Made by a program: the position numbers and the translations under genes. From contig CAVTUR010000010.1 of NCBI GenBank assembly GCA_963737945.1, forward strand, positions 152,705 through 216,704: DNA of 64,000 nucleotides, written 5' to 3'. Source of the DNA: Blastocatellia bacterium (GTDB lineage: Bacteria; Acidobacteriota; Blastocatellia; UBA7656). Each line of letters opens with the position of its first letter. Position 1 is the first letter of the stretch. Under the pieces are notes generated by a model. The model was not told the origin of the DNA. It did no database searches and worked only from the letters and a program-made list of their open reading frames with translations. Shown here piece after piece: positions 46,374 through 64,000 of this stretch.

Positions 46374-46598
46374 CTACTTCTTCAAAAGACCGTTCTTCAT
46401 CAAGAACGCTGTCAGCCACTCGTTAAACTCCCCAGGCTTTTCCATCATCAAGAAGTGGCCAACTCCGTCCATCGAGCGGTATTCCAGATTGAGACGCTTC
46501 GAGTTGAGCAGTACGGCCCTGGGAGCCCCTGCATCCCCGCCTGACGTAGCATCAAACGACGGCTGGCAGGACGATGCAGGCACTCCAGAGGCTGGCAC
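46374..46598 (-). pseudogene. C-terminal remnant of an alpha/beta-hydrolase (about 45 residues)
   Basis: …AVLLNSKRLNLEYRSMDGVGHFLMMEKPGEFNEWLTAFL resembles the C-terminus of alpha/beta-fold hydrolases. No upstream body is present, because ahcY abuts it. Confidence 0.3.
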
Positions 46599-46608
46599 AA
46601 TTCCGGAG

Positions 46609-49155
<2,547 letters not shown>

Positions 49156-51454: not shown

Positions 51455-52498
51455 CTACGACCGGTCGACGGGTGGCAAGGTCAGCTCCGCGACGAGATAC
51501 TCCATATGCAGCCTCGGCGTACCTTCGGAGTTTTTTATCGCATTGTCAACTTCGGCAATACGGCGAAGCCCGTGCACTATCTCTGCTCGCGACGCGCGGC
51601 GTACCCGGGTTAAGAATGTATCGCTCCATTGCCCTGTAGCTTTTGTTATCGCTTGCGTCGAGGCTCCGCCCTCCATGAGCTGCTTTCCTGTCAGAAGGCG
51701 CCGGTACAGGCTCGCCAGCGATCCGAGTATCGGCAAGGCGTCGCTGTCGTCCAGCAGGTGTTGCATCAGCTTCAAAGCGCGCTTGCGGTCACGGGCATTA
51801 ACGGCATCCCAGAGCTCCCAGCTCGTGTGCTCGCGGGCGCGTGGCACAAGTTCCTGAACGGCGGCGCTGGTGACAACGCCGCCGTCCGCATACGCCGCCA
51901 GCTTTTCAAGCTCGTTCACCAGCCGTGTTAGCCCCGTGCCGACGAGCCTTATCAACAGGCTCAGCGCCGCGGGCTCAATACTGCAACCGCGCTCCTTCAG
52001 CCGCGCCTCAGCCCACCGCTTGGCGCGACCCTCGTCGAGCAGTTCAAACGTCACCACTGCGCAGGTCTTCACGAGCGCCGATGTGAGCTTGCGACGCTTG
52101 TCCGGCGCAACAGCTTGAAATACCATCGTGGTCCCAGGAGCCGGACGCTTCACATACGAAAGGACCAGCTCCTGCTCGTCTTCTCTGACCTTGTCGAAAT
52201 CGCGAACTACGACCACGCGCCGGACGGACATCATCGGCATTTGATTTGCCGCGTCGATGACCATCGCTGCGGTGGTTTTTGAGCCATAGCCGTTGTCGCT
52301 CCCTATCGAGAATACCGACACGTTGAAAACGCGGAGGGCCTCGTCGACGGTCGCGTATAGCAGGCGAAGGGCGCGCTCCTGCAGATACTGCTCCTCGCCG
52401 ACAAACAGATAGAGAGGTTGGATTTGTCCGCCTTTGATCTCGCGGCGAAGATCTTCAAATCCGGGTCCCCTGGATTTTGTTTTTGGCCGTCCGCTCAC
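51455..52498 (-). CDS. holA: DNA polymerase III delta subunit
   Basis: MSGRPKTKSRGPGFEDLRREIKGGQIQPLYLFVGEEQYL…; typical holA length and N-terminus; 4-nt overlap with the upstream gene. Confidence 0.8.
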   Translation of the reverse strand: MSGRPKTKSRGPGFEDLRREIKGGQIQPLYLFVGEEQYLQERALRLLYATVDEALRVFNVSVFSIGSDNGYGSKTTAAMVIDAANQMPMMSVRRVVVVRDFDKVREDEQELVLSYVKRPAPGTTMVFQAVAPDKRRKLTSALVKTCAVVTFELLDEGRAKRWAEARLKERGCSIEPAALSLLIRLVGTGLTRLVNELEKLAAYADGGVVTSAAVQELVPRAREHTSWELWDAVNARDRKRALKLMQHLLDDSDALPILGSLASLYRRLLTGKQLMEGGASTQAITKATGQWSDTFLTRVRRASRAEIVHGLRRIAEVDNAIKNSEGTPRLHMEYLVAELTLPPVDRS

Positions 52499-53013
52499 AG
52501 TCCTTCCATTAGTGTCGAGACAATTGTCTGGGCGAAATCCTTTGCAATGCGGTCGACTGCCGGATTCTCCTCGTTGAAAAATGACTGCGGATCGTCTGAG
52601 AGCTGATACTCGCCCTCAAATGCCATGCGCGGGTTTTGAAAGATTATCTTGTGCGTCTTGAGGTCTCGCACGACGACGCTGACGACAATGCGAACATCCC
52701 AGACTCGCGTGCGGCCGCGATCATCAAGAAGCGATCCGCCCGCGTGAAATTGGCGTATGTCGCCGTCGAGTACGGCATCGGCGTTTTCCTGATTGGTGAC
52801 CACGCGAAGCGCACGAGCACGCTTAAGGATCTCGTCGATGACCGCCTGAGTGAATCGCTGCTCGACTCTATACTTGAGACTGGTGTTTTGGAATACGGGC
52901 ACAGCGATGGTCTTAATGTTCGCAGGCAGACTCTTACCCTTGCCGGCCTGCTTGTAGCCGCATACCCCAACGAACATCGACAGCGCGACTGCGAACAGTA
53001 AGGGCTTGAACAT
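52495..53013 (-). CDS. LptE-like LPS-assembly lipoprotein (RlpB family), tentative
   Basis: Signal/lipobox MFKPLLFAVALSMFVGVCG. About 172-aa lipoprotein immediately upstream of and overlapping holA, as in the conserved leuS-lptE-holA arrangement. Confidence 0.5.
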   Translation of the reverse strand: MFKPLLFAVALSMFVGVCGYKQAGKGKSLPANIKTIAVPVFQNTSLKYRVEQRFTQAVIDEILKRARALRVVTNQENADAVLDGDIRQFHAGGSLLDDRGRTRVWDVRIVVSVVVRDLKTHKIIFQNPRMAFEGEYQLSDDPQSFFNEENPAVDRIAKDFAQTIVSTLMEGL

Positions 53014-53158
53014 CTTGTCGTGGATATTAGCGTTCGAACCGCGGATCGGACAAGCAGGCAGGCGAAACCGCCGGAGTTTGAGACCTGGAGTGCGCGCGGT
53101 TAGTGCCGGTGGCGTACGTCCTAAATGCGTCGCGAAGCAACCGAAGAGGCGTCCAAAG

Positions 53159-53871
53159 CTAGACGAACTCAGCCACAACCTGCCGCCCGCAATCGTCGTT
53201 TGCAATATATACAACGAAAGCGTTGACGACATACAACTCGTCGTCGTAACTGTGCGTCCTCAGATGTTTTGGCATCGGCAATTCGAGTCTCAATTCCGTG
53301 GCCGGCTCAACCTGGCGCGACAGTCGGAACCTTACACCCAGCGGGCTCAAGTCCAAAGTCTCGGTAAGCTCTTGCCAATTGCGATCAAAGCTCACTCGCA
53401 GGGGAAGGTTCATCCTCACGCGCCCTACCCTCGCATTTCTTCTCTCACGCCGTGAGCCTCGGCCAGGGGTGTTCCGGCCGCTGGCGCGAGTTCGTTCAGC
53501 GAGGGTTGGCGCGAGTCAACTTTGGGACCGCGGACCGGGTCACCGTTCTGGCTTCTGAGGGTGTCGTCATAGACCTCCCGTCGACCGCGACGAGACAGGA
53601 CAGTGAATGCTTCTTCGATCCGAAGGAATGCGGAGCTCAACTTCCAGTGCATTACACTATCTGATTCTGTGATCTTGCGCCTCTTGGTCGGATGAAAACA
53701 TTCGACGGCCAGGCAGTAGGCCGCCTGTATCTCCTCTCTGGAAGCGTCAGGGCTTACGCCAAGCACCGTGTAGTGATCAGGCTCGTCTGTGATCAGATCG
53801 GCCATTAGTCCTACTTCGTCGGTGGTTAACGACCGATCCTCGATCAGGCCGACAACGCCGTCTTCTCTCAT
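53159..53871 (-). CDS. Degenerate J-domain (HPD to HPT) + PilZ-domain protein; one apparent frameshift near 53420
   Basis: J-like domain DHYTVLGVSPDASREEIQAAYCLAVECFHPTKRRK…FTVLSRRGRREVYDD. PilZ motifs REEMR (RxxxR) and DLSPLGVRF (DxSxxG). Its ATG overlaps the GNAT stop (TGATG). Confidence 0.65.
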
Positions 53872-54753
53872 CAGTGTACTTTTTGTTTTAGGAATATCGT
53901 GTCGTAGTGGCTGACAAACGTGTAGCCAGCCCTCTTGTAGAAGCGTTGCGCGGCTTGAAACCTTTCATTCACCAGCAGACACACCGAGGAGGTTCTCAAC
54001 AGCAGGTCTCTGGTCAACTGTGCCATACAACGCAATCCGATGCCTTTGCCTCGCTCTGCCGGATCGACCCACACGCCTTCCAGGTATGCTACCTCAGGTG
54101 TGTCGGTTAGCACTTCTGCCTTGAACATCAGCCGTCCCTCTTCCACCCACACCCAGGTCTGTCCTTGCTCTATTCGTCTCGCACATCGCTTCCGGAATTC
54201 TTCCGGATTTTCCTTCAGCGGGTCAATACCACTCTCGTCAAATGCGGTTTGAGCGTGCGCGGGAACAACCAGGTCGAGATCATCGGGAGTCGCCCGCCGC
54301 AAGCCCGCACGCCGATTCTCGTCACTTCGTCCGGCCATTGCTGCTCGAATAGCAGCTCCCGGCAGTACAGCCGCGCCTCCTGTCCTCCATCCCCATAATA
54401 ATGCCAGAACGTCTCGACCTCCTCTTGTTCTCCCAGCAGCATATGGGCGTTCGGACACTCCTGTGCGAGCCGCGCAAATAGCCTCGATAGCCGCGTCGCT
54501 GCGTGTCTCAAACAGGATGTAGCGGCCAATGAGGGCCACGCCTTGAAGCTGCCCGGAGTGCATTGCGGCAACCGTAGAAGGCGCCCTGATTGTGCGGGCT
54601 GACAAGCCCGTTGGAACGGATGAACCCGGTCATGCCGAAGGTGTGGCTCGGCCGCTCGCCCAAAAACTCCATCACTTCGGTTTCCTGCTCCGCCCTGAGT
54701 TCTTCCACGATCAGCGGCTCGCTCTCGTTTGCAGGCAGGCCCTGCGCATCCAT
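53871..54753 (-). pseudogene. GNAT-family N-acetyltransferase (two-domain, about 290 aa), 3 or more frameshifts
   Basis: Acetyl-CoA site …VWVDPAERGKGIGLRCMAQL…RFYKRAGY in ORF 53871-54605. N-terminal pieces sit in ORFs 54508-54753 and 54215-54571. Confidence 0.55.
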
Positions 54754-54887
54754 TCTGCTTCGCGTTGATACTTAGTCAGAGGATACATGTCGTTTTCCTT
54801 TTAGCCCTTTGAGTCCTTCCTGGATCAATTGCCTTACGTCGGTGCGTTACCGCGAGATGCTTAACAGCGTGCAGCATAATCCCCCGC

Positions 54888-56831
54888 CTAGTTGAGCGGG
54901 TCAGGATCGGGCTCCGGCAACATGGCGCTGGTCAAGTCACCGCTCATTGCGGATGAGGCTAGAATAGATTGGGCGGTCGCCCCCAACGAAGCAGAGAAGT
55001 AGCTATCGGACAACAGCACTCCATCCGAGAGGAGTACCCCATCGGATAGCAGTACCCCGCTTGATAGCACGGTGCCCAGCGTGAGGAGGGTGCCGCTCGA
55101 CAGCAAAGTGCCGTCCGAGAGGAGCACGCCATCCGACAGGAGGACACCGCTCGAAAGGAGAGTGCCATCGGATAAGAGAACGCCGCCGGCCAGAAGGGTG
55201 CCGTCTGAAAGCAACACTCCGGTTCCGTAGACGCCCTGATATTTCGTGATGAGCGAGGAGCCATAGACGAAGTTCCATCTTTGGACAAATCCGCCGCCCC
55301 AGGAAAACGTGTTGCCGGCGATCGTCGTTGTTTGTGTAGGCGCCGCTCCGGTGAGCAAAGAATCGCCCACCACGCGTCCCGCCAGGTCGGTACGTATCAG
55401 TCCCGCCAGCCTTACGCCGCCTTCCACATTCAGTTCGCCTGCTCCCTGTTCGTAGTTGCTGGCGCCGGCCAGAGGCCGCGACGTGTATTGCAGGATGCCC
55501 TTAACAAGGTTCGGGGTCAGACTCGGATTTCTCTGTATCAGTAGGGCCGCCGCACCTGCAACGGCCGGCGTGGCCATCGATGTCCCGCTCATGTACATCA
55601 TTTTGTGGACGGCGGACCAGCTTACGTACGCATTAAGGCTGGGGTTGTCAGTCACAAGCTTGTTGCCCGGTGATAGACACTCAATTATCTTGTTGCCCGG
55701 AGCGACCAGATCGGGCTTGATCAGATTGTCGTATTGCCTTACCCCCAGAGAATCGGTGGTATATCCGCGCGTTGGACCTCGAGAGCTAAAGCTCGCAACA
55801 GTGTCATCGACGCGGCTGTCCGTGCCATAGGTGTTGGCTGCCCCAACGGTGATCGCGGATGGTTCTATGCCCGGGGAATGGATTGCGCCGAACACCTTGT
55901 TGCCTGCGAGGTCTTTGCCGGTATTGCCGGCTGCCACGCATACGACTATCCCCGCGTTGAATGCTCGCCGCACTGCCTGGCAAAGCGGATCGTTCACATA
56001 CGAATCAACCGCCGTAGTGCCAAAGCTCATGTTAAGCACTCGAATGTTGTAAGCAGCCTTGTTGGCTATACACCAGTCAATCCCCGCGATCGCGTTAGAC
56101 ATCGAGCCGGCGCCCTGAGAATTCAGCACTCTTACATTGATGATCTTTGCCGCCGGTGCCACTCCGGTATACTTGCCGTTGGAAACGTGATCGTTTCCCG
56201 CCGCAATCGACGCCACGTGAGTACCGTGTCCGTAGGGATCGTCGGTCCTACCCTCACCCGTGAAGTCAACGCTCGCAACCACTCGGCCCGTATTAAATGA
56301 GTGATGCGCGGAGTAGACGCCCGAATCGAGTATTGCGATTCCAATGCCTGAGCCATTTATCGTCCCGGTTGAACTCGTGCCGTAGGCCCGCGCCAAAGAA
56401 GCTCCAGTGGTGACTTCCAGGTGACCTGTCACTTGTGTGTCTCGATCGAGAGAGATGTACTTGACGCCATCGTCGCTGGCGAGAGCACGGATCGCACCCG
56501 CGGACAGCTCCACTGCGGCAGTCCTCCCGCCGTCCAGGCTTCTGGTTATGATGCCTCCCAGTTTGCCGATCCTTGCCATCTGACTGCTTGCGGACTTTGC
56601 ATTCGCCAGGCTGTCTGTCTGGATGATTACGCGGATCGGTTTATCACTCGCGTATCCGACGGCATCCTCCAGATCCGACGCCACTTTTCTCATAGGAACA
56701 ATCGGTTGCGCTTTCGATTGAGCCATCGCGTTGCTTTCAAAGAGCCCATCCGTTGGCGCGCCGCTCAACGCGAAAGAGGCGGCCACTACGACTGCCGTTA
56801 GCACCTTGAAAACGTTTTTGGAGATTTTCAT
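54888..56831 (-). CDS. Secreted subtilisin-like serine protease (peptidase S8) with a C-terminal hexapeptide-repeat domain
   Basis: Signal peptide. Catalytic triad motifs AILDSGV (Asp), HGTHVASIAAG (His), GTSMATPAVAGAAALL (Ser). C-terminal tail has about 10 tandem [ST][DS]G[VT]LL repeats. Confidence 0.85.
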   Translation of the reverse strand: MKISKNVFKVLTAVVVAASFALSGAPTDGLFESNAMAQSKAQPIVPMRKVASDLEDAVGYASDKPIRVIIQTDSLANAKSASSQMARIGKLGGIITRSLDGGRTAAVELSAGAIRALASDDGVKYISLDRDTQVTGHLEVTTGASLARAYGTSSTGTINGSGIGIAILDSGVYSAHHSFNTGRVVASVDFTGEGRTDDPYGHGTHVASIAAGNDHVSNGKYTGVAPAAKIINVRVLNSQGAGSMSNAIAGIDWCIANKAAYNIRVLNMSFGTTAVDSYVNDPLCQAVRRAFNAGIVVCVAAGNTGKDLAGNKVFGAIHSPGIEPSAITVGAANTYGTDSRVDDTVASFSSRGPTRGYTTDSLGVRQYDNLIKPDLVAPGNKIIECLSPGNKLVTDNPSLNAYVSWSAVHKMMYMSGTSMATPAVAGAAALLIQRNPSLTPNLVKGILQYTSRPLAGASNYEQGAGELNVEGGVRLAGLIRTDLAGRVVGDSLLTGAAPTQTTTIAGNTFSWGGGFVQRWNFVYGSSLITKYQGVYGTGVLLSDGTLLAGGVLLSDGTLLSSGVLLSDGVLLSDGTLLSSGTLLTLGTVLSSGVLLSDGVLLSDGVLLSDSYFSASLGATAQSILASSAMSGDLTSAMLPEPDPDPLN

Positions 56832-57489
56832 GGTTTTAGCTCCCGACTGCGGTTAATAGCTAATGAGCACTGAGTTCAACTTCTTCAGCTTTCGACTGCT
56901 CTGTGTCTCTACAACCTTGAAGAGAAAATGATTCCGGTCACAAATAACACTCCCGAGTCGAACCCTCGACAGACGTTCCAATAGTCAACAGCCGTGCCGG
57001 AAGGTCAAACACCCGAGCCCCGACGCTCCGTGGAGGCATATGAATGGTCAGGGGGTAGCTCATATCCAGAGGACTTCGGAGTTTGCATTTACTTGGCAAA
57101 TCAAGACTTATGCAGGCTTGGGTCTTTGCCTTTGGCGGTCCCTTCACTTGCCGCCCGAAAGGGACCCGGACCAAGGAACACGACCGGTCACGTATAGCCC
57201 CCCGGCTTCGCGTCCGGTCAGCTTAATGGAAGGCGTTCGGTCTTATTGAATGAAGGCTCTTTTGAGGAATCAACGATGGGGGCCGCTGATCCAATAATTA
57301 CTCTTTGCTTCGAATCGACGACTGATTACTATTTGGAGGAGTCATCCCAGCCCTCGCTCTGCAATTCAGTTCAGGACTTCAACGGCAGGCAGAATCCGGC
57401 TGAAGACCTCGACTGCCTCTGCCCCTCCAGCTTGGCTTCGGAGCGAAAAGTCGAACTTGATTGTTGGGACCGGGCGGCCGGGTGAGAGA

Positions 57490-58626
57490 ATGTCTGCTGA
57501 TCAAGAATACAGCGAAGATCAGGTAAGCGCTTATTACCTGGAGGTTGAGTGCTTGTTGGAGCGCGTGGAGATTTCGTCCACACACTATCAGGTCCTGGGG
57601 CTGGATAGTCTAGCTACTACCGGAGAGATAAGACTTGAATATCTGCGGGCGGCTGCATTGCTGAATCCTTCACAGTTCGGACTCAATCTGTCAATACCGG
57701 ACGCCTCATTGCTCAGGGTTGATCAGGCGTTCGAAAGAATTTCCCAGGCATTCGCGGTCCTCGTGAACTCCAATAGAAGAAACCAATACGATGAATTGCT
57801 AAGTCAAGATTGGACCGCGGCGCGGCCGGTGATCAAATCCGGATCGGCTTTATCAGACATTCTGGCCGACCCTCCGCCGGTTACGGCTCCGGCGGAACAC
57901 AGCGCACTCAACACCAACGACACCCAGACTCAACAGCGAGTCTTCACAAAACCAGACGGCGGCGCGGCGGAAACCGATCGGCGCAAGTGTGAGCGATTCA
58001 GACTCTCGATACCTGTCCTCGTGACCGGTTACGAGCAAGGAAAGGGCAAGTGGAAGGAGTTCACGCAGACAATCGATATCAGCAAAATGGGAGTCCTGCT
58101 CAAGATTGCGACGCGAGTGCGCGTTGGAAGAGTGCTCTATCTTACGATGCCCATGCCTTCGGAGTTACGGACTCACTCCCACGACCAACCGCGATACGGC
58201 GTGTACGCTCTGGTGCGGCGAATCGAGCCTACCAGGAATGGACGCCGGGGCGTCGGGCTCGAGTTGTTGGGTGAGGACCCTCCGGCGGGTTACTTAGAGA
58301 AGCCCTCGGACATATTTGATCCAAAGAGGTGGGACGCCGTTCAACGCAGGCGGTTCCCTCGCGAGGAAAGAGTCGAGGAGATCACTATCGACTACCTGTC
58401 TCAAACAATGGAACTACTGGGACAGGAGGAGACGTTTTCGGAAAACGTAAGTTCGACCGGTATTAGAGTAATGATCGAAGCCGCCCCAGACGACTTCGAG
58501 TTTGTCAGAGTGCGCTGTTCCAAGCGTGGCTTTGATAGTCTGGCAGCCGTTTCCAACCAGTACGTCGGAGATGATGGAGTCGGTCGATTGTGTTTGCGCC
58601 TTCTCGATAGGAAGTGGCCCGTCTAG
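57490..58626 (+). CDS. Degenerate J-domain (HPD to NPS) + tandem PilZ-domain protein
   Basis: J-like THYQVLGLDSLATTGEIRLEYLRAAALLNPSQ…LVNSNRRNQYDELL. PilZ-1 motifs RRKCERFR and DISKMGVLL. PilZ-2 motifs RRRFPREER and NVSSTGIRV. Shares an MPxP..LRTHS.D motif with the 53159-53871 paralog. Confidence 0.7.
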   Translation: MSADQEYSEDQVSAYYLEVECLLERVEISSTHYQVLGLDSLATTGEIRLEYLRAAALLNPSQFGLNLSIPDASLLRVDQAFERISQAFAVLVNSNRRNQYDELLSQDWTAARPVIKSGSALSDILADPPPVTAPAEHSALNTNDTQTQQRVFTKPDGGAAETDRRKCERFRLSIPVLVTGYEQGKGKWKEFTQTIDISKMGVLLKIATRVRVGRVLYLTMPMPSELRTHSHDQPRYGVYALVRRIEPTRNGRRGVGLELLGEDPPAGYLEKPSDIFDPKRWDAVQRRRFPREERVEEITIDYLSQTMELLGQEETFSENVSSTGIRVMIEAAPDDFEFVRVRCSKRGFDSLAAVSNQYVGDDGVGRLCLRLLDRKWPV

Positions 58627-58965
58627 GCACATCGGTTGGCCCTGCGTCCTCACTTCAGGAGTGAATTCTGCCACGGTCTGCTTGACCAGCTTACATCAAG
58701 CTGACCGAAATGCTTCCTTCAAGTATGTAATGTCGATCCGGATTCTTTTATGCGTGCCGCGTTTTTCCCCGGAAAAATAACCTTCTCTCAGGAGATCGCA
58801 TCCACTTGCTAACTCATTACTTAAGCTCTGGTTATCTCCAGTTTCCGGTTGCGCTCCACTTACTTGAACGAGGGAAACAGACCGCGGATGCCGATAGATA
58901 AACGATATGTTCTCTTTTGGCACGCTCATTGACTGTTGTTTGCCGAATACCAGGATAGCTTCCAA

Positions 58966-61485
58966 ATGAGCAACGCATTGCCGGTGGACACCGAGAGAAT
59001 CGCCGCGCCCTACATGAAAATTGTGGCAGCGACCGGTGCTGCCATAAGCCTATTCGCTGTTTATCACTTACCGATCACAAGGATCGGTCTGCCTTTTCTG
59101 CTCTTGGCGGCAGTGACACTAGGTGTCGGATCCAGGATTCGCGTTAGCTTTTTTCGTTTCGACTCCTGCATTTCGATCTCAGATATCTTCATTTTTCTTA
59201 CGCTCCTGTTGTTCGATGGAGAGGCGGCTATTGTTGTCGCGGCGCTGGAGGGTTTTTTCTCGTCGCTGCGCATTACCAAGAAACCGCTCACGATGGCGTT
59301 CAACTCCGGCGGCATGGCGTGGTCAACTTTTCTAAACGTGTTGGTGCTTCGCTTCTGCTTCGGATCGATAGTTGGTCCACATCAAGTTTTTTCTTCCAGA
59401 CTCATTGTAATGACCTGCACAATGGCCTTTGTTCAATACGCCACCAATTCGGGGATTGTCGCTGTCGCGGCGGCCCTAAGAGCAAATCAGCCCATCTGGG
59501 TCACATACAAAGAGAACTTCGTTTGGACCTCACTCACCTATTTTGCCGGAGCTTCAGCGGCCACAATCATCGTCAGGCTGATAAGCGCCGTCGGTTTCTA
59601 TGCCTTCATAGCCACGTTGCCGATCGTCGGAATCCTCTACCTCACATATGTAACTTATCTCAAGAATGTCGCGGCTTCGGCGTCACAGGCTGAACAAGCC
59701 GAACGCCATCTTGCTGAGATGCAGGAAAGCGAAGGGCGATTCCGAAGCGCCTTTGACCTGGCCCCAATTGGAATGGGACTGGTTTCACCTGAGGGACGCT
59801 GGCTGCAGGTCAATCAATCGTTGTGTCAGATCGTCGGGTACCCGGAAGAGGAACTCCTGCGGATGAAGTACCAGACGATCACCCATCCGGAAGATCTTAC
59901 TGGTTTCGCGTACAACATAAGCGAGGTCGTTGACGGCAAGACTCTCACTCACCAGATGGAGAAGCGATACCGCCACAAACTGGGCCACAATGTCTGGGTC
60001 TTAGTCGGGGTCTCGCTCATTCGCGACTCAGAAAGTAACTCGTCGCATCTTATCTTTCAGATTCAGGACATCACCGATCGCAAGAACGCAGAGGAACAAC
60101 TCGTGCACGAGGCTTTCCACGATGCCCTGACCGGATTGCCTAACCGAGCATGGTTTATGGAACAGCTTGGTAGGTCTCTGGACCAGGTCAAGCAGGACAA
60201 GGATCGTCTGTTTGCCGTGCTGTTCCTCGACCTTGATCGCTTCAAGACCATCAACGACAGCATAGGCCACATGGTTGGAGACCAGTTGTTGATCGGGATC
60301 GCCGAGAGACTTCGGCATTGCCTGCGCCCTGGAGACAGGATAGCCAGACTCGGCGGCGACGAGTTTACGATACTACTCAACGGTATCAGGGACGCCAGTT
60401 GGGCCATCGACGTCGCCGAGAAGATCCAGAGACACGTCTCGCAGCCGTTCAACCTTGGCGGTTATGAGGCCTGCACTTCCGCGAGCATCGGCATAGCATT
60501 TTCCAACGCCGACTATGATCGACCGGAGGACTTCCTGCGCGACGCGGACACGGCTATGTATCAGGCCAAGTTCCTCGGCAAGGCCCGTCACGTAGTCTTC
60601 GACAAAGGCATGCACGTCGATGCGATGAATCTCCTGCAGTTGGAGACTGACCTGCGCAGGGCGATCGATCGCCAGGAATTCCTGATCGGATACCAGCCTA
60701 TTGTCTCACTGGAAACCGGTAGACTCAGCGGATTCGAAGCCCTTGTCCGCTGGCAGCACCCGGATCGCGGATTGATCCCCCCAAATGATTTCATTGCAGT
60801 CGCTGAAGAGACAGGTTTCATAGTTCCAATCGGTCAATGGGTACTACTTGAAGCGTGCAGCCAAATGCGACTCTGGCAGAAGAGGTTCTCATCGGCCGAA
60901 CCCTTGTATGTCAGCGTCAACCTTTCCGGCAAACAGTTCACCCATTCGAATCTGGTTCATCAGATAAGCCGGGTACTCAATGTTACCGGGCTCGAATCGC
61001 ATTCGCTGAAGCTGGAAATTACCGAGAGAATAGTGATGGAGAATATCGAAGGAGCGACTGGGATACTCGAGCAGTTGCGTGCCCTCGGGGTCGAACTCAG
61101 CATCGATGATTTTGGGACAGGGTACTCATCACTTAGCTATCTGCACCGCCTGCCCATCGACACCTTGAAAATAGATCGCTCCTTCATCAGCTGCATGGGC
61201 GACAACAACGAGAACAGAGAGATTGTACGAACGATAATATTGCTGGCCCAAAACCTGAAAATGGGCGTCGTCGCCGAGGGGATCGAAACCGAGGAACAGC
61301 TTGCGCAACTACGCGAGCTTAACTGTCAGGACGGCCAGGGTTACTTATTCTCCAGACCGCTCAGCGCAGAAGCAGCAGGCAGTTTCATTGAACAGATCTC
61401 TCAACTCCAAATACCCACCACCTCGGCCATCGAGTTGCGCAGCGAAGATGCTTTTGCGCCTATCGCAAGTCCCTACTCGATGTAG
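58966..61485 (+). CDS. Membrane sensor diguanylate cyclase/phosphodiesterase (N-terminal ~8-TM domain, PAS, GGDEF, EAL)
   Basis: PAS segment FDLAPIGMGLVSPEGRWLQVNQSLCQIVGY. I-site RPGD plus active-site RLGGDEF. EAL motifs FEALVRW, DDFGTGYSSLSYL, KIDRSF. An in-frame TTG at 58936 is an alternative start. Confidence 0.85.
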   Translation: MSNALPVDTERIAAPYMKIVAATGAAISLFAVYHLPITRIGLPFLLLAAVTLGVGSRIRVSFFRFDSCISISDIFIFLTLLLFDGEAAIVVAALEGFFSSLRITKKPLTMAFNSGGMAWSTFLNVLVLRFCFGSIVGPHQVFSSRLIVMTCTMAFVQYATNSGIVAVAAALRANQPIWVTYKENFVWTSLTYFAGASAATIIVRLISAVGFYAFIATLPIVGILYLTYVTYLKNVAASASQAEQAERHLAEMQESEGRFRSAFDLAPIGMGLVSPEGRWLQVNQSLCQIVGYPEEELLRMKYQTITHPEDLTGFAYNISEVVDGKTLTHQMEKRYRHKLGHNVWVLVGVSLIRDSESNSSHLIFQIQDITDRKNAEEQLVHEAFHDALTGLPNRAWFMEQLGRSLDQVKQDKDRLFAVLFLDLDRFKTINDSIGHMVGDQLLIGIAERLRHCLRPGDRIARLGGDEFTILLNGIRDASWAIDVAEKIQRHVSQPFNLGGYEACTSASIGIAFSNADYDRPEDFLRDADTAMYQAKFLGKARHVVFDKGMHVDAMNLLQLETDLRRAIDRQEFLIGYQPIVSLETGRLSGFEALVRWQHPDRGLIPPNDFIAVAEETGFIVPIGQWVLLEACSQMRLWQKRFSSAEPLYVSVNLSGKQFTHSNLVHQISRVLNVTGLESHSLKLEITERIVMENIEGATGILEQLRALGVELSIDDFGTGYSSLSYLHRLPIDTLKIDRSFISCMGDNNENREIVRTIILLAQNLKMGVVAEGIETEEQLAQLRELNCQDGQGYLFSRPLSAEAAGSFIEQISQLQIPTTSAIELRSEDAFAPIASPYSM

Positions 61486-61572
61486 TTGCCACTCCTGACT
61501 TGTGGCGCGCCGCGAAAGCCGGGAAACGAGCGCGTGAAGCCACCTCACCCGCAACGTGAAGGTTGCGCTTCG

Positions 61573-64000
61573 TCACTTTATTACTACATTGATCAGTTTT
61601 CTTGGGATGACGATGATCCTTGCGACATCGCGGCCCTCGATTGCAGCTTTCACTTTGTCATCCGCAAGCGCGGCCTCGCGCAGCCAGTCATCGCTCGCGT
61701 CTGCGCTTGCGAAAACGCGGCCCCGCAGCTTGCCGTTGACCTGGACCGCAACTTCGATCTCTTCGTCACGAGCGAGTTCGGCGCTGAATTCCGGCCATCG
61801 CGCCTGCGCCAGGCTCTCGGAATGGCCAAAACTCTCCCACAGCTCCTCGCTGATGTGAGGACCAAACGGCGCCAGCATCCGAATCAATGCGTTGAATGCT
61901 TCACGCGCTACCTGGGCATCTGAGTCGCTCGCATCGCCAATCTTTTCGACCGCCTGGTCGAACGCGTAGATCTCGTTGGTCAGTTCCATCAACGACGAGA
62001 TGCAGGTGTTCAAGTGAAGCCGTTCCTCGAAGTTTTCGGTTATCGATCGTACTATCTGATGCACGCGGCGACGGAGCCTTCGCTGATGGTCTTGAAGATC
62101 ACCCTGGGTAATCAATCCCTCGCTCGCTCCAACAATCCTGCCCTGCCACTTGTGAGCTATTCGCCAGACTCGCTGCAGGTATCGTGAAGTGCCTTCGAAT
62201 CCGGTATCCGACCACTCCTTATCCTTCTCGGGTGGACCGGCAAAGAGCACGAACAAGCGCAGCGCATCCGCGCCGTGAATGTTGATCATCTCGACAGGAT
62301 CGACGGCGTTCTTTTTGGACTTCGACATCTTTTCGACGCGGCCGGTGACTACTTCCCTTCCGCAGATCGCGCAAGTCCTCTCGCCGGTCACTTGCTCGGG
62401 AAACAACCACTCGTGCTCGGGGCAGAAGTATGTTTCCTTATTGATCATCCCCTGGGTGAGCAGCCGCATAACCGGCTCATCCAAGGTCACAAGCCCCAGA
62501 TCGCGCATCACCTTCGTCCAGTAACGTGTATAGATCAGGTGCATCACTGCGTGCTCGATGCCGCCGATGTATTGATCGACCGGCAGCCAGTAGCCAACCT
62601 TCTCGGGATCGAATGGCTGACGGTCGTTGTGCGGATCGCAGTAGCGAAAGTAATACCAGTTCGAGTCAACAAAGGTGTCCATCGTGTCGGTGTCGCGCTT
62701 CGCCTCGCCGCCACATTTCGGGCAACTCACGTCGACGTAGTCAGGCACGTGGTCGAGCGGCGAGCCGCCGGTGACGTTCAAGTTCACTCCCTTTGGCAAC
62801 ACAACCGGCAACTGATCGTCGGGCACCGGCACGATGCCGCACTTCTCGCAGTGAATCATCGGAACCGGTGTGCCCCAGTAGCGCTGCCGGGAGATGCCCC
62901 AGTCGCGCAGCTTATAAGTGATCGCCGAACGCCCAAACTGGTGAGTCTCAGCGTAGGCGGTCATCAGCCTGTTTGCTTCTTCTGAAGACAAGCCGCTCCA
63001 CTCCCCCGTGTTCACCGTGGTACTCCAGGATTCATCCGGGAATTCCATTTCTTCCGCTGGAATCTCGGCACCGTCTGCAGCCAGCTTGATCTGGCGAAAC
63101 GGCAGCTGGTACTTGCGCGAGAACTCGAAGTCTCGGCTATCACCGGCCGGCACCGACATGAGCGCCCCGGTTCCGTATTCGGCCAGCACAAAGTTCGCGA
63201 TCCATATCGGCAGGCGTTCCTCGTTGAACGGGTTTATCGCATACCCGCCGGTGAAGATGCCGTGCTTTTCCAGTTCGTCAACTCGCGAGCTTCGTTGTTC
63301 CTGCTTAAGCGTCTCGGCGAATGCCAATACCTCTTCTCGCTGTGGCTTGCCCTCGAGGATCTTCGAGACAAGCGGATGCCCGGGCGCCAGTATGATCGCG
63401 TTCGCGCCGAATATCGTGTCGATGCGAGTAGTAAACACCGACACCGAATTGTCGGAGTCCGCAATCTGGAACCGAACCTCTGCGCCGCGACTCCTGCCAA
63501 TCCAGTTGCGCTGCATGGAGATCACGCGCTCGGGCCAGCCGCCTTCCAGTTGATCGAGACCATCGAGCAACTGATCGGCGTAATCCGTGATTCGCGCAAA
63601 CCACTGCATCAACTGTTTCTGAGTGACCGGAGTATCGCATCGCCAGCAGACGCCGCCCGAGGCCTGTTCGTTGGACAGCGAGATATTCTCCTTCGGACAC
63701 CAGTTGACCGGAGCGAGCTTGCGATAGAGCATCCCCCGCTCCCACATTCGAATAAAGAACCACTGGTTCCACTTGTAGTACTCGGGGTCGCAGGTGGCGA
63801 CCTCGCGCGACCAGTCGTAGCTGATCCCCATTCGCAGAAGTTGATCTTTCATCGTCGCGATCGCGTTCCGCGTAAACTCCTCCGGATCAGTTCCGTCTTT
63901 GATGGCGGCCGTCTCAGCAGGCTGGCCAAAGGCATCCCAGCCGAAGGGGTGAAGCACGTTGAAGCCGCGCATCCGCTTGAACCACGCCAGAGCATCGCCG
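61573..64000 (-). CDS. leuS: Leucyl-tRNA synthetase, 5' partial (frame continues past the window end)
   Basis: …RMRGFNVLHPFGWDAFGQPAE…; editing (CP1) domain, KMSKS motif (VEKMSKSKKN) and C-terminal anticodon-binding region. No stop between 63972 and 64000 in frame. Confidence 0.9.
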   Translation of the reverse strand, partial: GDALAWFKRMRGFNVLHPFGWDAFGQPAETAAIKDGTDPEEFTRNAIATMKDQLLRMGISYDWSREVATCDPEYYKWNQWFFIRMWERGMLYRKLAPVNWCPKENISLSNEQASGGVCWRCDTPVTQKQLMQWFARITDYADQLLDGLDQLEGGWPERVISMQRNWIGRSRGAEVRFQIADSDNSVSVFTTRIDTIFGANAIILAPGHPLVSKILEGKPQREEVLAFAETLKQEQRSSRVDELEKHGIFTGGYAINPFNEERLPIWIANFVLAEYGTGALMSVPAGDSRDFEFSRKYQLPFRQIKLAADGAEIPAEEMEFPDESWSTTVNTGEWSGLSSEEANRLMTAYAETHQFGRSAITYKLRDWGISRQRYWGTPVPMIHCEKCGIVPVPDDQLPVVLPKGVNLNVTGGSPLDHVPDYVDVSCPKCGGEAKRDTDTMDTFVDSNWYYFRYCDPHNDRQPFDPEKVGYWLPVDQYIGGIEHAVMHLIYTRYWTKVMRDLGLVTLDEPVMRLLTQGMINKETYFCPEHEWLFPEQVTGERTCAICGREVVTGRVEKMSKSKKNAVDPVEMINIHGADALRLFVLFAGPPEKDKEWSDTGFEGTSRYLQRVWRIAHKWQGRIVGASEGLITQGDLQDHQRRLRRRVHQIVRSITENFEERLHLNTCISSLMELTNEIYAFDQAVEKIGDASDSDAQVAREAFNALIRMLAPFGPHISEELWESFGHSESLAQARWPEFSAELARDEEIEVAVQVNGKLRGRVFASADASDDWLREAALADDKVKAAIEGRDVARIIVIPRKLINVVIK

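What the first reader, a model, noticed from the sequence alone, without database searches (positions are those of the whole stretch)
53014..61572. About 8.5 kb c-di-GMP/protease segment lying between leuS and lptE-holA
On the minus strand the order is leuS, then 8.5 kb, then lptE-like and holA. This is the conserved leuS-lptE-holA neighbourhood split by a block. The block carries J-PilZ x2, a GNAT, an S8 protease with a repeat tail, and PAS-GGDEF-EAL, on both strands. Its intergenic stretches (56832-57456; 58627-58935) are visibly AT-richer than the flanks. That fits an accessory insertion into a housekeeping cluster, although there are no integrase or tRNA landmarks.
Basis: inference. Interest (0 to 1): 0.5.

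Follow-up and report, generated by a model that had tools for sequence, protein, structure and literature searches.

The report
Variable gene block between leuS and lptE
In this soil acidobacterium, an 8.5-kb set of c-di-GMP signalling and secreted-protease genes sits between two housekeeping genes that are direct neighbours in some related species; it is an old, much-rearranged accessory cluster at a plastic chromosomal site, not a recent mobile insertion.

Summary
On the minus strand the order is leuS (61573-63972), an 8,559-bp block, then lptE (52495-53013) and holA (51455-52498). There is no tRNA, integrase or flanking repeat.

The organism is a Blastocatellia acidobacterium. Among 54 related species:
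- leuS-lptE spacing runs from 21 bp to 8 kb, and the window has the largest spacing.
- Six species have leuS and lptE directly adjacent.
- Fourteen carry the S8 protease (mostly with GNAT and J-PilZ) at this same site, and four also carry the GGDEF-EAL gene.
- Other species carry unrelated cargo there.

Parsimony puts the gain of the protease module at the base of the window's 16-species clade, so the insertion is old.

Gene order differs among the closest relatives, in cyclic permutations. Leftover lptE and leuS fragments sit inside two relatives' blocks, which points to duplication, deletion and recombination rather than a mobile element.

In the window the J-2xPilZ and GGDEF-EAL pair is inverted, lower in GC and unusually diverged.

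GNAT and the lptE-proximal J-PilZ carry frame-breaking indels. These are probably consensus errors, because ahcY shows the same defect.

Verdict: an ordinary plasticity hotspot.

The parts
61573..63972 (-). leuS (leucyl-tRNA synthetase), upstream boundary of the variable region
   Evidence: Pfam tRNA-synt_1, editing and anticodon-binding domains. It is 74-85% identical to relatives in a single frame. DNA homology with relatives stops at the stop codon.
61486..61572 (.). 87-bp convergent spacer between the 3' ends of leuS and the GGDEF-EAL gene
   Evidence: GC 0.644. This junction exists only in this assembly; no independent contig covers it.
58936..61485 (+). Membrane-anchored PAS-GGDEF-EAL protein, predicted to be a bifunctional c-di-GMP cyclase/phosphodiesterase. 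It is inverted relative to all four relatives that carry it.
   Evidence: Pfam PAS, GGDEF and EAL. Motifs RPGD (I-site) 464, GGDEF 473, EALVR 601, DDFGTG 724, EGIET 781 and QGYLF 801, plus N-terminal hydrophobic segments. blastn shows it inverted against L002, L003, L011 and L012. It is only 67-70% identical to those four, which are 78-88% identical to each other. GC 0.533.
58627..58935 (.). Spacer between the J-2xPilZ and GGDEF-EAL genes
   Evidence: GC 0.485, z=-1.35 among the window's spacers. No Rfam match.
57457..58626 (+). J-like domain plus tandem PilZ protein (389 aa), a predicted c-di-GMP receptor
   Evidence: Pfam DnaJ and PilZ. The HPD motif is replaced by NPS. Both PilZ domains keep RxxxR and [D/N]xSxxG in 51 homologues. 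The AF2 model shows a helical domain 20-120, a disordered linker and two beta-barrels. Foldseek matches MotI/DgrA, YcgR, MrkH, PlzA and VCA0042. None of the 54 species loci has a DNA homologue. The same S8/J-2xPilZ divergent arrangement occurs on metagenome contig L055.
56832..57456 (.). 625-bp divergent spacer between the S8 and J-2xPilZ genes
   Evidence: GC 0.528. Only the 91 bp next to S8 are conserved with L002. The spacer is collinear with L055. No Rfam match, so no c-di-GMP riboswitch.
54888..56831 (-). Secreted subtilase (S8) with a C-terminal GVLLSD hexapeptide-repeat tail
   Evidence: Pfam Peptidase_S8, E=9e-50. Asp169, His202, Asn267 and Ser418 sit in the ILDSG, HGTHV, NMSFG and SGTSMA motifs. 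The N-terminal signal peptide is judged by inspection. Orthologues have tails of roughly 6-14 hexapeptide repeats (read by eye from the tails printed; the regex there counts 3-12). The gene is intact in a single frame against orthologues.
53871..54788 (-). GNAT acetyltransferase gene (about 300 aa in relatives), broken in this sequence by five 1-2 nt insertions
   Evidence: Pfam Acetyltransf_1/7. The insertions lie at about 54770, 54760, 54560, 54479 and 54321, judged against L001, L002, L003 and L018. Substitutions still show the codon-position pattern of a selected gene.
53159..53871 (-). Short J-like-PilZ gene, split by a 1-nt deletion near 53432. Its start overlaps the GNAT stop.
   Evidence: Pfam DnaJ on 53425-53871. 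The PilZ part (LPLRVSF...DLSPLG) lies in ORF 53159-53419. DNA alignment was made with L002, L003, L006 and L012. Pfam detects PilZ in the L012 orthologue.
53014..53158 (.). Spacer upstream of lptE. The proximal 20-47 bp is the conserved edge of the variable region.
   Evidence: blastn homology with nearly all relatives resumes at window 53014-53062.
52495..53013 (-). lptE (LPS-assembly lipoprotein), downstream boundary
   Evidence: Pfam LptE. Lipobox by inspection. 341 homologues, annotated as Blastocatellia/Acidobacteriota.
51455..52498 (-). holA (DNA polymerase III delta), overlapping lptE by 4 nt
   Evidence: Pfam DNA_pol3_delta N- and C-terminal domains. It follows lptE in nearly every locus whose contig extends far enough.

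Best explanation
The segment is a lineage-specific accessory gene cluster. It occupies a chromosomal plasticity hotspot directly upstream of lptE-holA in one family of Blastocatellia (Acidobacteriota).

It has two parts:
- Part A (about 53.0-56.9 kb) is an S8 secreted protease, a GNAT and a short J-like-PilZ unit, co-oriented with lptE. It was gained at the base of the window's 16-species clade and mostly inherited vertically since.
- Part B (about 56.9-61.6 kb) is a J-like-tandem-PilZ gene followed by a membrane PAS-GGDEF-EAL gene. In this lineage it is inverted, lower in GC and unusually diverged.

No mobile element made or moves the block. The site changes by duplication, deletion, inversion and homologous exchange between related genomes, anchored on the conserved leuS and lptE-holA flanks (inferred).

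Function (inferred from domains only): the GGDEF-EAL enzyme sets a local c-di-GMP level in response to a membrane or PAS-sensed signal. The PilZ proteins bind c-di-GMP. Their J-like domains lack the HPD motif, so they serve as protein-interaction outputs rather than as Hsp70 co-chaperones. Likely targets are the neighbouring acetyltransferase and/or production of the secreted protease.
For: Shown:
- Gene content.
- No tRNA, integrase or flanking repeats.
- leuS-lptE spacing of 21-274 bp in six species and up to 8 kb in others. The S8 module is at the same site in 14 species and the GGDEF-EAL gene in 4.
- Unrelated cargo occupies the site in other species: an ATG22-type transporter, a Na/Ca exchanger, DUF1800/DUF1501, a PAS histidine kinase, an aldo-keto reductase, AAA ATPases, TIR-AAA_35 and others.
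- The S8 tree is broadly congruent with the LptE+HolA tree.
- Parsimony: the module is absent at the family root and present at the MRCA of the window's 16-species clade. The minimum is 6 changes; a single gain would need 11 losses.
- Gene orders are L003 [S8 GNAT J DGC], L012 [J DGC S8 GNAT] and L002 [DGC S8 GNAT J], which are cyclic permutations.
- A 235-bp lptE fragment lies between DGC and S8 in L002. A 300-bp leuS 3' fragment lies between two GNAT copies in L027.
- The DGC gene is inverted in the window.
- The nearest relative switches from L002 to L018 at about 54.4 kb.
- The window's DGC is an outlier at 67-70%, against 78-88% among the relatives.
- L055 independently shows the divergent S8/J-2xPilZ junction.
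- PilZ motifs are conserved and HPD is absent. The fold matches YcgR/MotI-type receptors. The GGDEF, I-site and EAL motifs are intact.
Against: - The species tree is a neighbour-joining tree on only two proteins (about 520 aa) from metagenome-assembled genomes, so the ancestral-state inference is soft.
- A single ancient gain with 11 losses is not excluded.
- The duplication-deletion mechanism rests on two remnant fragments and on gene-order logic. No event was observed directly.
- The leuS/DGC junction has no independent contig support.
- Every functional statement is a domain-based inference.
- No riboswitch or recognisable promoter or terminator defines the transcription units.
- GNAT and the short J-PilZ are not intact ORFs in this sequence, so Part A may be partly non-functional here.
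Confidence: 0.65

Rival explanations
1. The block is a recently acquired genomic island. A mobile element, or a one-off horizontal transfer, dropped it into the leuS-lptE-holA operon.
For: - leuS and lptE are adjacent in six relatives.
- Block GC is in the lowest 2.7% of same-size windows, and the tetranucleotide distance peaks there.
- The J-2xPilZ gene has no homologue in the 54 species loci.
- The window's DGC is abnormally diverged.
Against: - No integrase, transposase, tRNA or direct repeats.
- S8, GNAT and J have normal GC, are orthologous and syntenic in 14 species, and their tree follows the species tree.
- The S8/J-2xPilZ junction is shared with L055 at only 75% DNA identity, so it is old.
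- The spacer GC values are ordinary.
Confidence: 0.1
2. The block is the ancestral arrangement for the whole family. The tight leuS-lptE adjacency seen in some species is secondary, produced by repeated deletion.
For: - The S8 module occurs in both major clades (L013, L014 and L036, as well as the window's clade), always at the same site, and the S8 tree mirrors the species tree.
- Partial states exist that look like decay: J-PilZ only in L006, S8 only in L007 and L016, and S8-GNAT without J in L005 and L018.
Against: - A single gain needs 11 independent losses, against 6 changes for the unconstrained optimum.
- The earliest-branching ingroup species (L021) and the outgroup lack the module.
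- leuS directly followed by lptE is the widespread arrangement in Proteobacteria (P. aeruginosa operon: PMC12977507; E. coli from general knowledge).
Confidence: 0.2
3. The unusual features of this copy are artefacts of a metagenome assembly that mixes co-occurring strains. These features are the inverted Part B, the mosaic identity profile and the frame-breaking indels.
For: - Frame-breaking 1-2 nt indels cluster in GNAT (5), the short J-PilZ (1) and the housekeeping gene ahcY (7). leuS, S8, DGC, holA, lptE and metK have none.
- Substitutions in ahcY and GNAT keep a purifying-selection pattern. That argues for consensus errors rather than old pseudogenes.
- The GNAT indel cluster sits where the nearest relative switches.
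Against: - Independent contigs L055 and L056, from two other sequencing runs, reproduce the S8/J-2xPilZ arrangement.
- All large genes in the block are intact and collinear.
- The indels do not lie in homopolymers.
- An assembly error would not create an 849-aa gene that is uniformly 67-70% identical to its orthologues.
Confidence: 0.1
4. The block is an anti-phage defence island built around an S8 protease (IetAS-like), located in a defence hotspot.
For: - The S8 protein gives weak hits to PADLOC 'subtilase' and IetS models and to NCBIfam IteS.
- L014 carries TIR-AAA_35 proteins, and L017, L019 and L024 carry an AAA ATPase, next to the same site.
Against: - The S8 hits are generic catalytic-domain matches, far below the family cut-off (46 bits against 900).
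- No IetA-type ATPase partner is present.
- GNAT, the J-PilZ proteins and DGC have no PADLOC hit.
- The S8 protein has a signal peptide and a repeat tail, as expected for a secreted enzyme.
Confidence: 0.03

Closest known systems
leuS-lptE(rlpB)-holA housekeeping neighbourhood of Proteobacteria (lptE immediately downstream of leuS in the P. aeruginosa operon, PMC12977507; E. coli from general knowledge)
   Same: The three genes are in the same order on the same strand. lptE and holA overlap by 4 nt. In six related Blastocatellia species leuS and lptE are 21-274 bp apart.
   Different: In the window 8,559 bp with six other genes, two of them on the opposite strand, separate leuS from lptE. In the more distant Blastocatellia sampled (LptE about 50% identical), a pyrimidine-nucleoside phosphorylase precedes lptE instead of leuS.
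Regions of genomic plasticity, or 'hotspots', between conserved core genes (general knowledge from Pseudomonas and E. coli pangenomes)
   Same: The site is bounded by conserved core genes. Cargo differs from species to species, and some of it is defence-like (TIR-AAA_35 in L014). Many occupants have no integrase.
   Different: One particular cargo, S8-GNAT-J-PilZ, has persisted at the site through the diversification of a 16-species clade and is reshuffled in place. It is not swapped for unrelated islands.
YcgR / MotI(DgrA) / PlzA / MrkH two-barrel PilZ c-di-GMP receptors
   Same: The predicted tandem beta-barrel region matches these structures (Foldseek E of about 1e-7, probability 1.0). RxxxR and [D/N]xSxxG motifs are present.
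   Different: Both barrels carry canonical binding motifs, whereas the N-terminal barrel of YcgR-type proteins is a degenerate PilZN. An N-terminal J-like helical domain and a linker of about 58 disordered residues are added. Sequence identity to the solved structures is only 8-13%.
Myxococcus xanthus PilZ proteins with chaperone or acetyltransferase modules: PilZ-DnaK CsdK1/CsdK2 (PMC10313047), PilZ proteins with a DnaK or DnaJ domain, and PixB (2xPilZ + GNAT) (PMC8316039)
   Same: PilZ is combined with an Hsp70-system domain, and PilZ is functionally linked to a GNAT acetyltransferase. Here the GNAT and the short J-PilZ genes overlap (stop and start at 53871).
   Different: Here the J-like domain lacks the HPD motif across the whole family. 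GNAT and PilZ are separate proteins rather than a fusion. Nothing has been tested experimentally in Acidobacteria.

Membership tests
Integrative genomic island / mobile element | Integrase, recombinase or transposase gene inside or beside the block | tested here: not met
   Pfam scan of all block ORFs finds none. The cargo ORFs scanned in relatives have none either.
Integrative genomic island / mobile element | tRNA/tmRNA attachment site or flanking direct repeats | tested here: not met
   ARAGORN finds no gene in 64 kb. The repeat finder finds only short, chance-level matches and none at the block edges.
Integrative genomic island / mobile element | Composition distinct from the host genome | tested here: inconclusive
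   Block GC is 0.553 against 0.570, and the tetranucleotide z is 2.3-2.7. The deviation is confined to the J-2xPilZ/DGC half; S8, GNAT and J are normal. The spacers are not outliers.
Integrative genomic island / mobile element | Presence/absence polymorphism among related genomes, with an intact empty site | tested here: met
   Six species have leuS-lptE 21-274 bp apart, and 14 have the S8 module at the site.
leuS-lptE-holA conserved neighbourhood | lptE immediately downstream of leuS, followed by holA, on the same strand | tested here: not met
   The order and strand are kept, but leuS and lptE are 8,559 bp apart in the window. lptE-holA contiguity is met, with a 4-nt overlap.
PilZ c-di-GMP receptor | RxxxR and [D/N]xSxxG binding motifs | tested here: met
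   The J-2xPilZ protein has RKCER/DISKMG and RRFPR/NVSSTG, conserved in 51 homologues. The short J-PilZ has REEMR (interrupted by the 1-nt deletion) and DLSPLG.
PilZ c-di-GMP receptor | Six-stranded beta-barrel PilZ fold | tested here: met
   The AF2 barrels span 180-272 and 300-382, with pLDDT mostly 79-94 apart from a dip to 61-71 at residues 231-250. Foldseek hits PA0012, Alg44, BcsA PilZ and YcgR/MotI.
PilZ c-di-GMP receptor | Binds c-di-GMP | not testable with these tools
   Needs a binding assay (DRaCALA or ITC).
J-domain (Hsp40/DnaJ) co-chaperone | J-domain helical fold | tested here: met
   Pfam DnaJ scores 34.7 and 44.8 bits, above the 27.8 cut-off. The model has a helical domain with a DNAJB8 J-domain match (TMt 0.67).
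J-domain (Hsp40/DnaJ) co-chaperone | HPD tripeptide, needed to stimulate the Hsp70 ATPase | tested here: not met
   The tripeptide is NPS in the 389-aa protein, HPT in the window's short protein and HPL/HPV in its orthologues. Across the family it is [Y/H/N/F]-P-x with no Asp.
GGDEF diguanylate cyclase / EAL phosphodiesterase | GG[D/E]EF active site, RxxD I-site, and the EAL catalytic motifs EALxR, DDFGTG, EGxE and QG | tested here: met
   All are present at 464, 473, 601, 724, 781 and 801. Pfam GGDEF scores 158 bits and EAL 254 bits. Enzyme activity was not tested.
Subtilase (peptidase S8) | Asp-His-Ser catalytic triad in the S8 order, plus the oxyanion Asn | tested here: met
   D169, H202, N267 and S418. 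Pfam Peptidase_S8 scores 170 bits.
GNAT acetyltransferase | Intact GNAT fold-encoding ORF | tested here: inconclusive
   The domain is detected, but the gene carries five frame-breaking insertions in this sequence. These may be consensus errors.
IetAS-type anti-phage system | IetS protease together with the IetA ATPase partner | tested here: not met
   Only generic subtilase-level hits were found: PADLOC IetS 59 bits, and NCBIfam IteS 46 bits against a cut-off of 900. No ATPase partner is present.

The most novel reading that the evidence does not exclude
S8 protease, GNAT and J-like-PilZ, often joined by a PAS-GGDEF-EAL enzyme, may form a previously undescribed c-di-GMP output module of Blastocatellia. 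In this reading a PilZ receptor uses an HPD-less J-like domain as its effector surface to control an acetyltransferase and a secreted, repeat-tailed protease. Its fixed position directly upstream of lptE-holA would then couple outer-membrane biogenesis genes to that signal by read-through transcription.
Probability: 0.15. Interest if true: 0.5.

Novelty: new member of a known kind. Interest (0 to 1): 0.3.

Why it matters
The result mainly serves as a calibration case. A gene block that splits a textbook housekeeping neighbourhood looks like a fresh insertion when read from one sequence. Comparison with 54 related species shows instead an old, vertically carried accessory cluster at a recombination-prone site with no mobile-element machinery.

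It also gives a concrete, well-sampled example of gene-order evolution by cyclic permutation, with duplicated fragments of the flanking genes left behind, in a poorly studied soil phylum.

It flags a family of J-like-tandem-PilZ proteins whose output mechanism is unknown.

None of this overturns current understanding.

Tried and rejected
- Rfam e-value scan of 52.4-62.0 kb for a c-di-GMP riboswitch or other RNA: nothing found.
- Promoter and terminator scan: counts were at or below the shuffle expectation, so it was uninformative.
- Search for inverted repeats at the inversion ends: only 15-25 nt matches at 76-89% complementarity, with none placed at the breakpoints. Treated as chance.
- Exact look-ups of the window's LptE and of P0121, to name the source contig: no record found. 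The cluster listing gave no name.
- Homologue search with the DGC sensor half, to find a donor lineage: the best hits were only 54-67% identical fragments, so no donor was identified.
- Defence-system hypothesis: PADLOC gave only generic subtilase hits.
- NCBIfam: no specific family for any block protein.
- PDB sequence search with the intact GNAT orthologue: only generic GNAT hits.
- Search for leuS or lptE remnants inside the window's own block: none found. Such remnants exist only in L002 and L027.
- Literature search for leuS+lptE+holA together: no paper.

Full report
**What is in the window**

On the minus strand the order is:
- leuS, 61573-63972;
- an 8,559-bp interval;
- lptE, 52495-53013, whose true start is given by the lipobox MFKPLLFAVALSMFVGVC|G;
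- holA, 51455-52498, overlapping lptE by 4 nt.

The interval holds six genes:
- a J-domain ORF, 53425-53871 (minus strand);
- a GNAT, 53871-54605 as listed (minus strand);
- a Peptidase_S8 with a signal peptide and 12 GVLLSD-type hexapeptide repeats, 54888-56831 (minus strand);
- a DnaJ+PilZ protein, 57457-58626 (plus strand);
- a membrane PAS-GGDEF-EAL protein, 58936-61485 (plus strand).

There is no tRNA or tmRNA anywhere in the 64 kb. No block ORF has an integrase or transposase domain. There are no meaningful flanking repeats and no Rfam match, so no c-di-GMP riboswitch.

**Corrections to the observation**

DNA and protein comparison with orthologues gives two corrections.
- The lptE-proximal J-PilZ gene is split by a 1-nt deletion near 53432, exactly in its RxxxR motif. 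The PilZ barrel continues in ORF 53159-53419.
- The GNAT gene starts at 54788 and carries five 1-2 nt insertions relative to four orthologues.

These need not be real pseudogenes. The housekeeping gene ahcY (46612-47897) carries seven similar indels. By contrast leuS, S8, DGC, holA, lptE and metK have none.

In both ahcY and GNAT the substitutions still fall overwhelmingly on third codon positions:
- ahcY: 4.4%, 1.6% and 32.6% at positions 1, 2 and 3.
- GNAT: 13.8%, 10.9% and 35.5%.
These figures match intact comparators. Many indels without relaxed substitutions fit local consensus errors better than old decay. The indels are not in homopolymers, so I cannot settle this without the reads.

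**Composition**

The block has GC 0.553 against 0.570 for the window, which is the lowest 2.7% of same-size windows. Tetranucleotide distance peaks at z=2.3-2.7 over 54-62 kb.

The deviation comes from the J-2xPilZ (0.549) and GGDEF-EAL (0.533) half. S8, GNAT and the J ORF are normal at 0.57-0.58.

**Who it is and what the relatives look like**

LptE homologues are annotated as Blastocatellia or Acidobacteriota. A scan of one genome per species with an LptE alignment returned 54 loci. I mapped the window's proteins onto them with tblastn and called ORFs in the intervals.

Results:
- In 20 species leuS lies within 10 kb upstream of lptE on the same strand.
- The leuS-lptE gap in those species is 21, 26, 115, 174, 197 and 274 bp in six, 1.3-1.7 kb in three, 3.5-4.3 kb in six, and 5.7-8.0 kb in five. 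The window's 8.56 kb is the largest.
- Fifteen species have 10 kb of upstream sequence with no leuS.
- The S8 gene is at this site in 14 species, mostly as S8-GNAT-J-PilZ. The GGDEF-EAL gene is there in four (L002, L003, L011, L012).
- Other species carry unrelated genes at the site. These include an ATG22-type MFS transporter, a Na/Ca exchanger, DUF1800+DUF1501, a PAS histidine kinase with a methyltransferase, an aldo-keto reductase with an AAA ATPase, a peptidyl-arginine deiminase, an FHA-trypsin protein and, upstream of S8 in L014, TIR-AAA_35 proteins.
- None of the cargo ORFs scanned is an integrase or transposase.

DNA homology with relatives stops at the leuS stop codon and resumes within about 50 bp upstream of the lptE start.

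**How old is it**

A neighbour-joining tree of LptE+HolA places the window in a 16-species clade in which almost every member carries the S8 module. A tree of the S8 catalytic region reproduces the main groupings (L013/L014; L009/L020/L027; L007/L016; the window's group).

Fitch parsimony gives these results:
- the module is absent at the family root;
- it is present at the MRCA of the window's clade;
- the minimum is six changes overall;
- a single-gain scenario needs 11 losses.

So the block, or at least its S8-GNAT-J part, is an insertion relative to a leuS-lptE ancestor. The insertion is old and has been inherited through speciation. This rests on a two-protein tree of metagenome-assembled genomes and is provisional.

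**How the site changes**

Four close relatives have four different gene orders:
- L003: S8-GNAT-J-DGC-lptE
- L012: leuS-J-DGC-S8-GNAT-lptE
- L002: leuS-DGC-lptE'-S8-GNAT-J-lptE
- the window: leuS-(DGC, J-2xPilZ inverted)-S8-GNAT-J-lptE

The first three are cyclic permutations of one four-gene set.

L002 keeps a 235-bp fragment of lptE between DGC and S8. L027 keeps a 300-bp 3' fragment of leuS between two GNAT copies. A tandem duplication whose end lay inside a flanking gene, followed by partial deletion, would leave exactly such remnants. I infer this as the main mechanism.

Exchange between lineages also occurs:
- Along the collinear region the window's nearest relative is L002 from 49.7 to 54.3 kb. 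It switches to L018 between 54.5 and 55.7 kb, and window+L018 are S8 sisters in 80% of bootstraps.
- The window's DGC is 67-70% identical to the four orthologues, which are 78-88% identical to each other. Yet the window's flanks are closest to L002 at 86.5%.
- The DGC gene is inverted relative to all four relatives.
- The 2.2 kb carrying the J-2xPilZ gene has no DNA homologue in any of the 54 loci.

The arrangement is not an assembly quirk. Metagenome contigs L055 and L056, from two other runs, show the same divergent S8/J-2xPilZ junction. In L055 the S8 protein is 82% identical, the J-2xPilZ protein 69%, and DNA identity is 75% over 3.8 kb. The junction is therefore old.

**What the genes probably do (inference from domains)**

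- The GGDEF-EAL protein has an intact I-site, GGDEF motif and all EAL catalytic motifs, behind hydrophobic N-terminal segments and a PAS domain.
- The 389-aa protein has a helical J-like domain, a disordered linker of about 58 residues and two beta-barrels. The barrels match two-barrel c-di-GMP receptors such as MotI/DgrA, YcgR, MrkH and PlzA. Both barrels keep RxxxR and [D/N]xSxxG in 51 homologues. The HPD tripeptide of true J-domains is replaced throughout the family.
- More distant members of that family (40-45% identity) sit elsewhere in Blastocatellia genomes, including the genome of L027.
- The short J-PilZ also lacks HPD (HPT, HPL or HPV). Its start overlaps the GNAT stop.
- PilZ fused or linked to Hsp70-system domains and to a GNAT has precedent in Myxococcus xanthus: CsdK1/2 (PMC10313047), and PixB and DnaJ/DnaK-PilZ proteins (PMC8316039).

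My working model is a local c-di-GMP circuit. Its receptors use the J-like domain as an interaction surface, with the acetyltransferase and/or the secreted protease as outputs. Nothing here tests that model.

A defence-system reading is not supported.

**Verdict**

The block is accessory and does interrupt an arrangement that is contiguous in relatives. It is not a recent or mobile-element-borne insertion: it is an old, rearranging, partly exchanged cluster at a plasticity hotspot.

This is a new example of a known kind of genome feature, with modest interest. The HPD-less J-like-PilZ proteins and the conserved S8-GNAT-J-PilZ triad are the parts most worth following up experimentally.

Noticed in passing
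window 46612-47897 (-): The S-adenosylhomocysteine hydrolase gene (ahcY), downstream of an intact metK (48004-49155), carries seven window-specific 1-2 nt indels that break the frame. Its substitution pattern is still that of a strongly selected gene. This looks like local consensus error and bears on how far to trust the GNAT and J-PilZ frameshifts.
   Followed up: yes
window 46377-46611: The gene that follows ahcY in L012 and L020 (295-311 aa) is represented in the window only by its last 38 codons (46377-46490). This suggests a deletion or rearrangement just downstream of ahcY.
   Followed up: no
L002 5222-5477: A degenerate 5' fragment of lptE (codons about 3-86, 43% aa and 70% DNA identity) lies between the GGDEF-EAL gene and S8. 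It is 4.5 kb upstream of the intact lptE.
   Followed up: yes
L027 6584-8538: A second, frameshifted GNAT copy is followed by a 300-bp 3' fragment of leuS, ahead of the regular GNAT-J-PilZ-lptE. This is a footprint of a duplication that included the end of leuS.
   Followed up: partly
window 54900-55250 (S8 C-terminus) and orthologues in L001-L036: All 15 S8 orthologues end in a run of GVLLSD-type hexapeptides (roughly 6-14 copies read by eye from the tails printed; the regex there counts 3-12), with the number differing between species. The run is followed by a conserved acidic, proline-rich tail (..PEPDPDPLN). No Pfam family matches it. The period of six residues suggests a beta-solenoid-like tail of unknown role.
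   Followed up: partly
L014 1068-5298: Two paralogous TIR_2 + AAA_35 proteins (520 and 891 aa) sit directly upstream of the S8 module. In the sister species L013 leuS is found at that position. This is a defence-like insertion into the same hotspot.
   Followed up: partly
L017 8324-9919, L019 8310-9911, L024 8307-9872: A conserved protein of about 530 aa, with weak sub-cutoff AAA_16/AAA_22 P-loop matches, lies on the opposite strand immediately upstream of lptE in three related species. It gives a weak PADLOC PDC-M28C hit.
   Followed up: no
L057 8001-9161 (same genome as L027), L059-L061: More distant J-like-tandem-PilZ homologues (40-45% identity) have a different, recurring neighbourhood: DUF2911, several CarboxypepD_reg-repeat secreted proteins and an unannotated protein of about 1,500 aa.
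   Followed up: no
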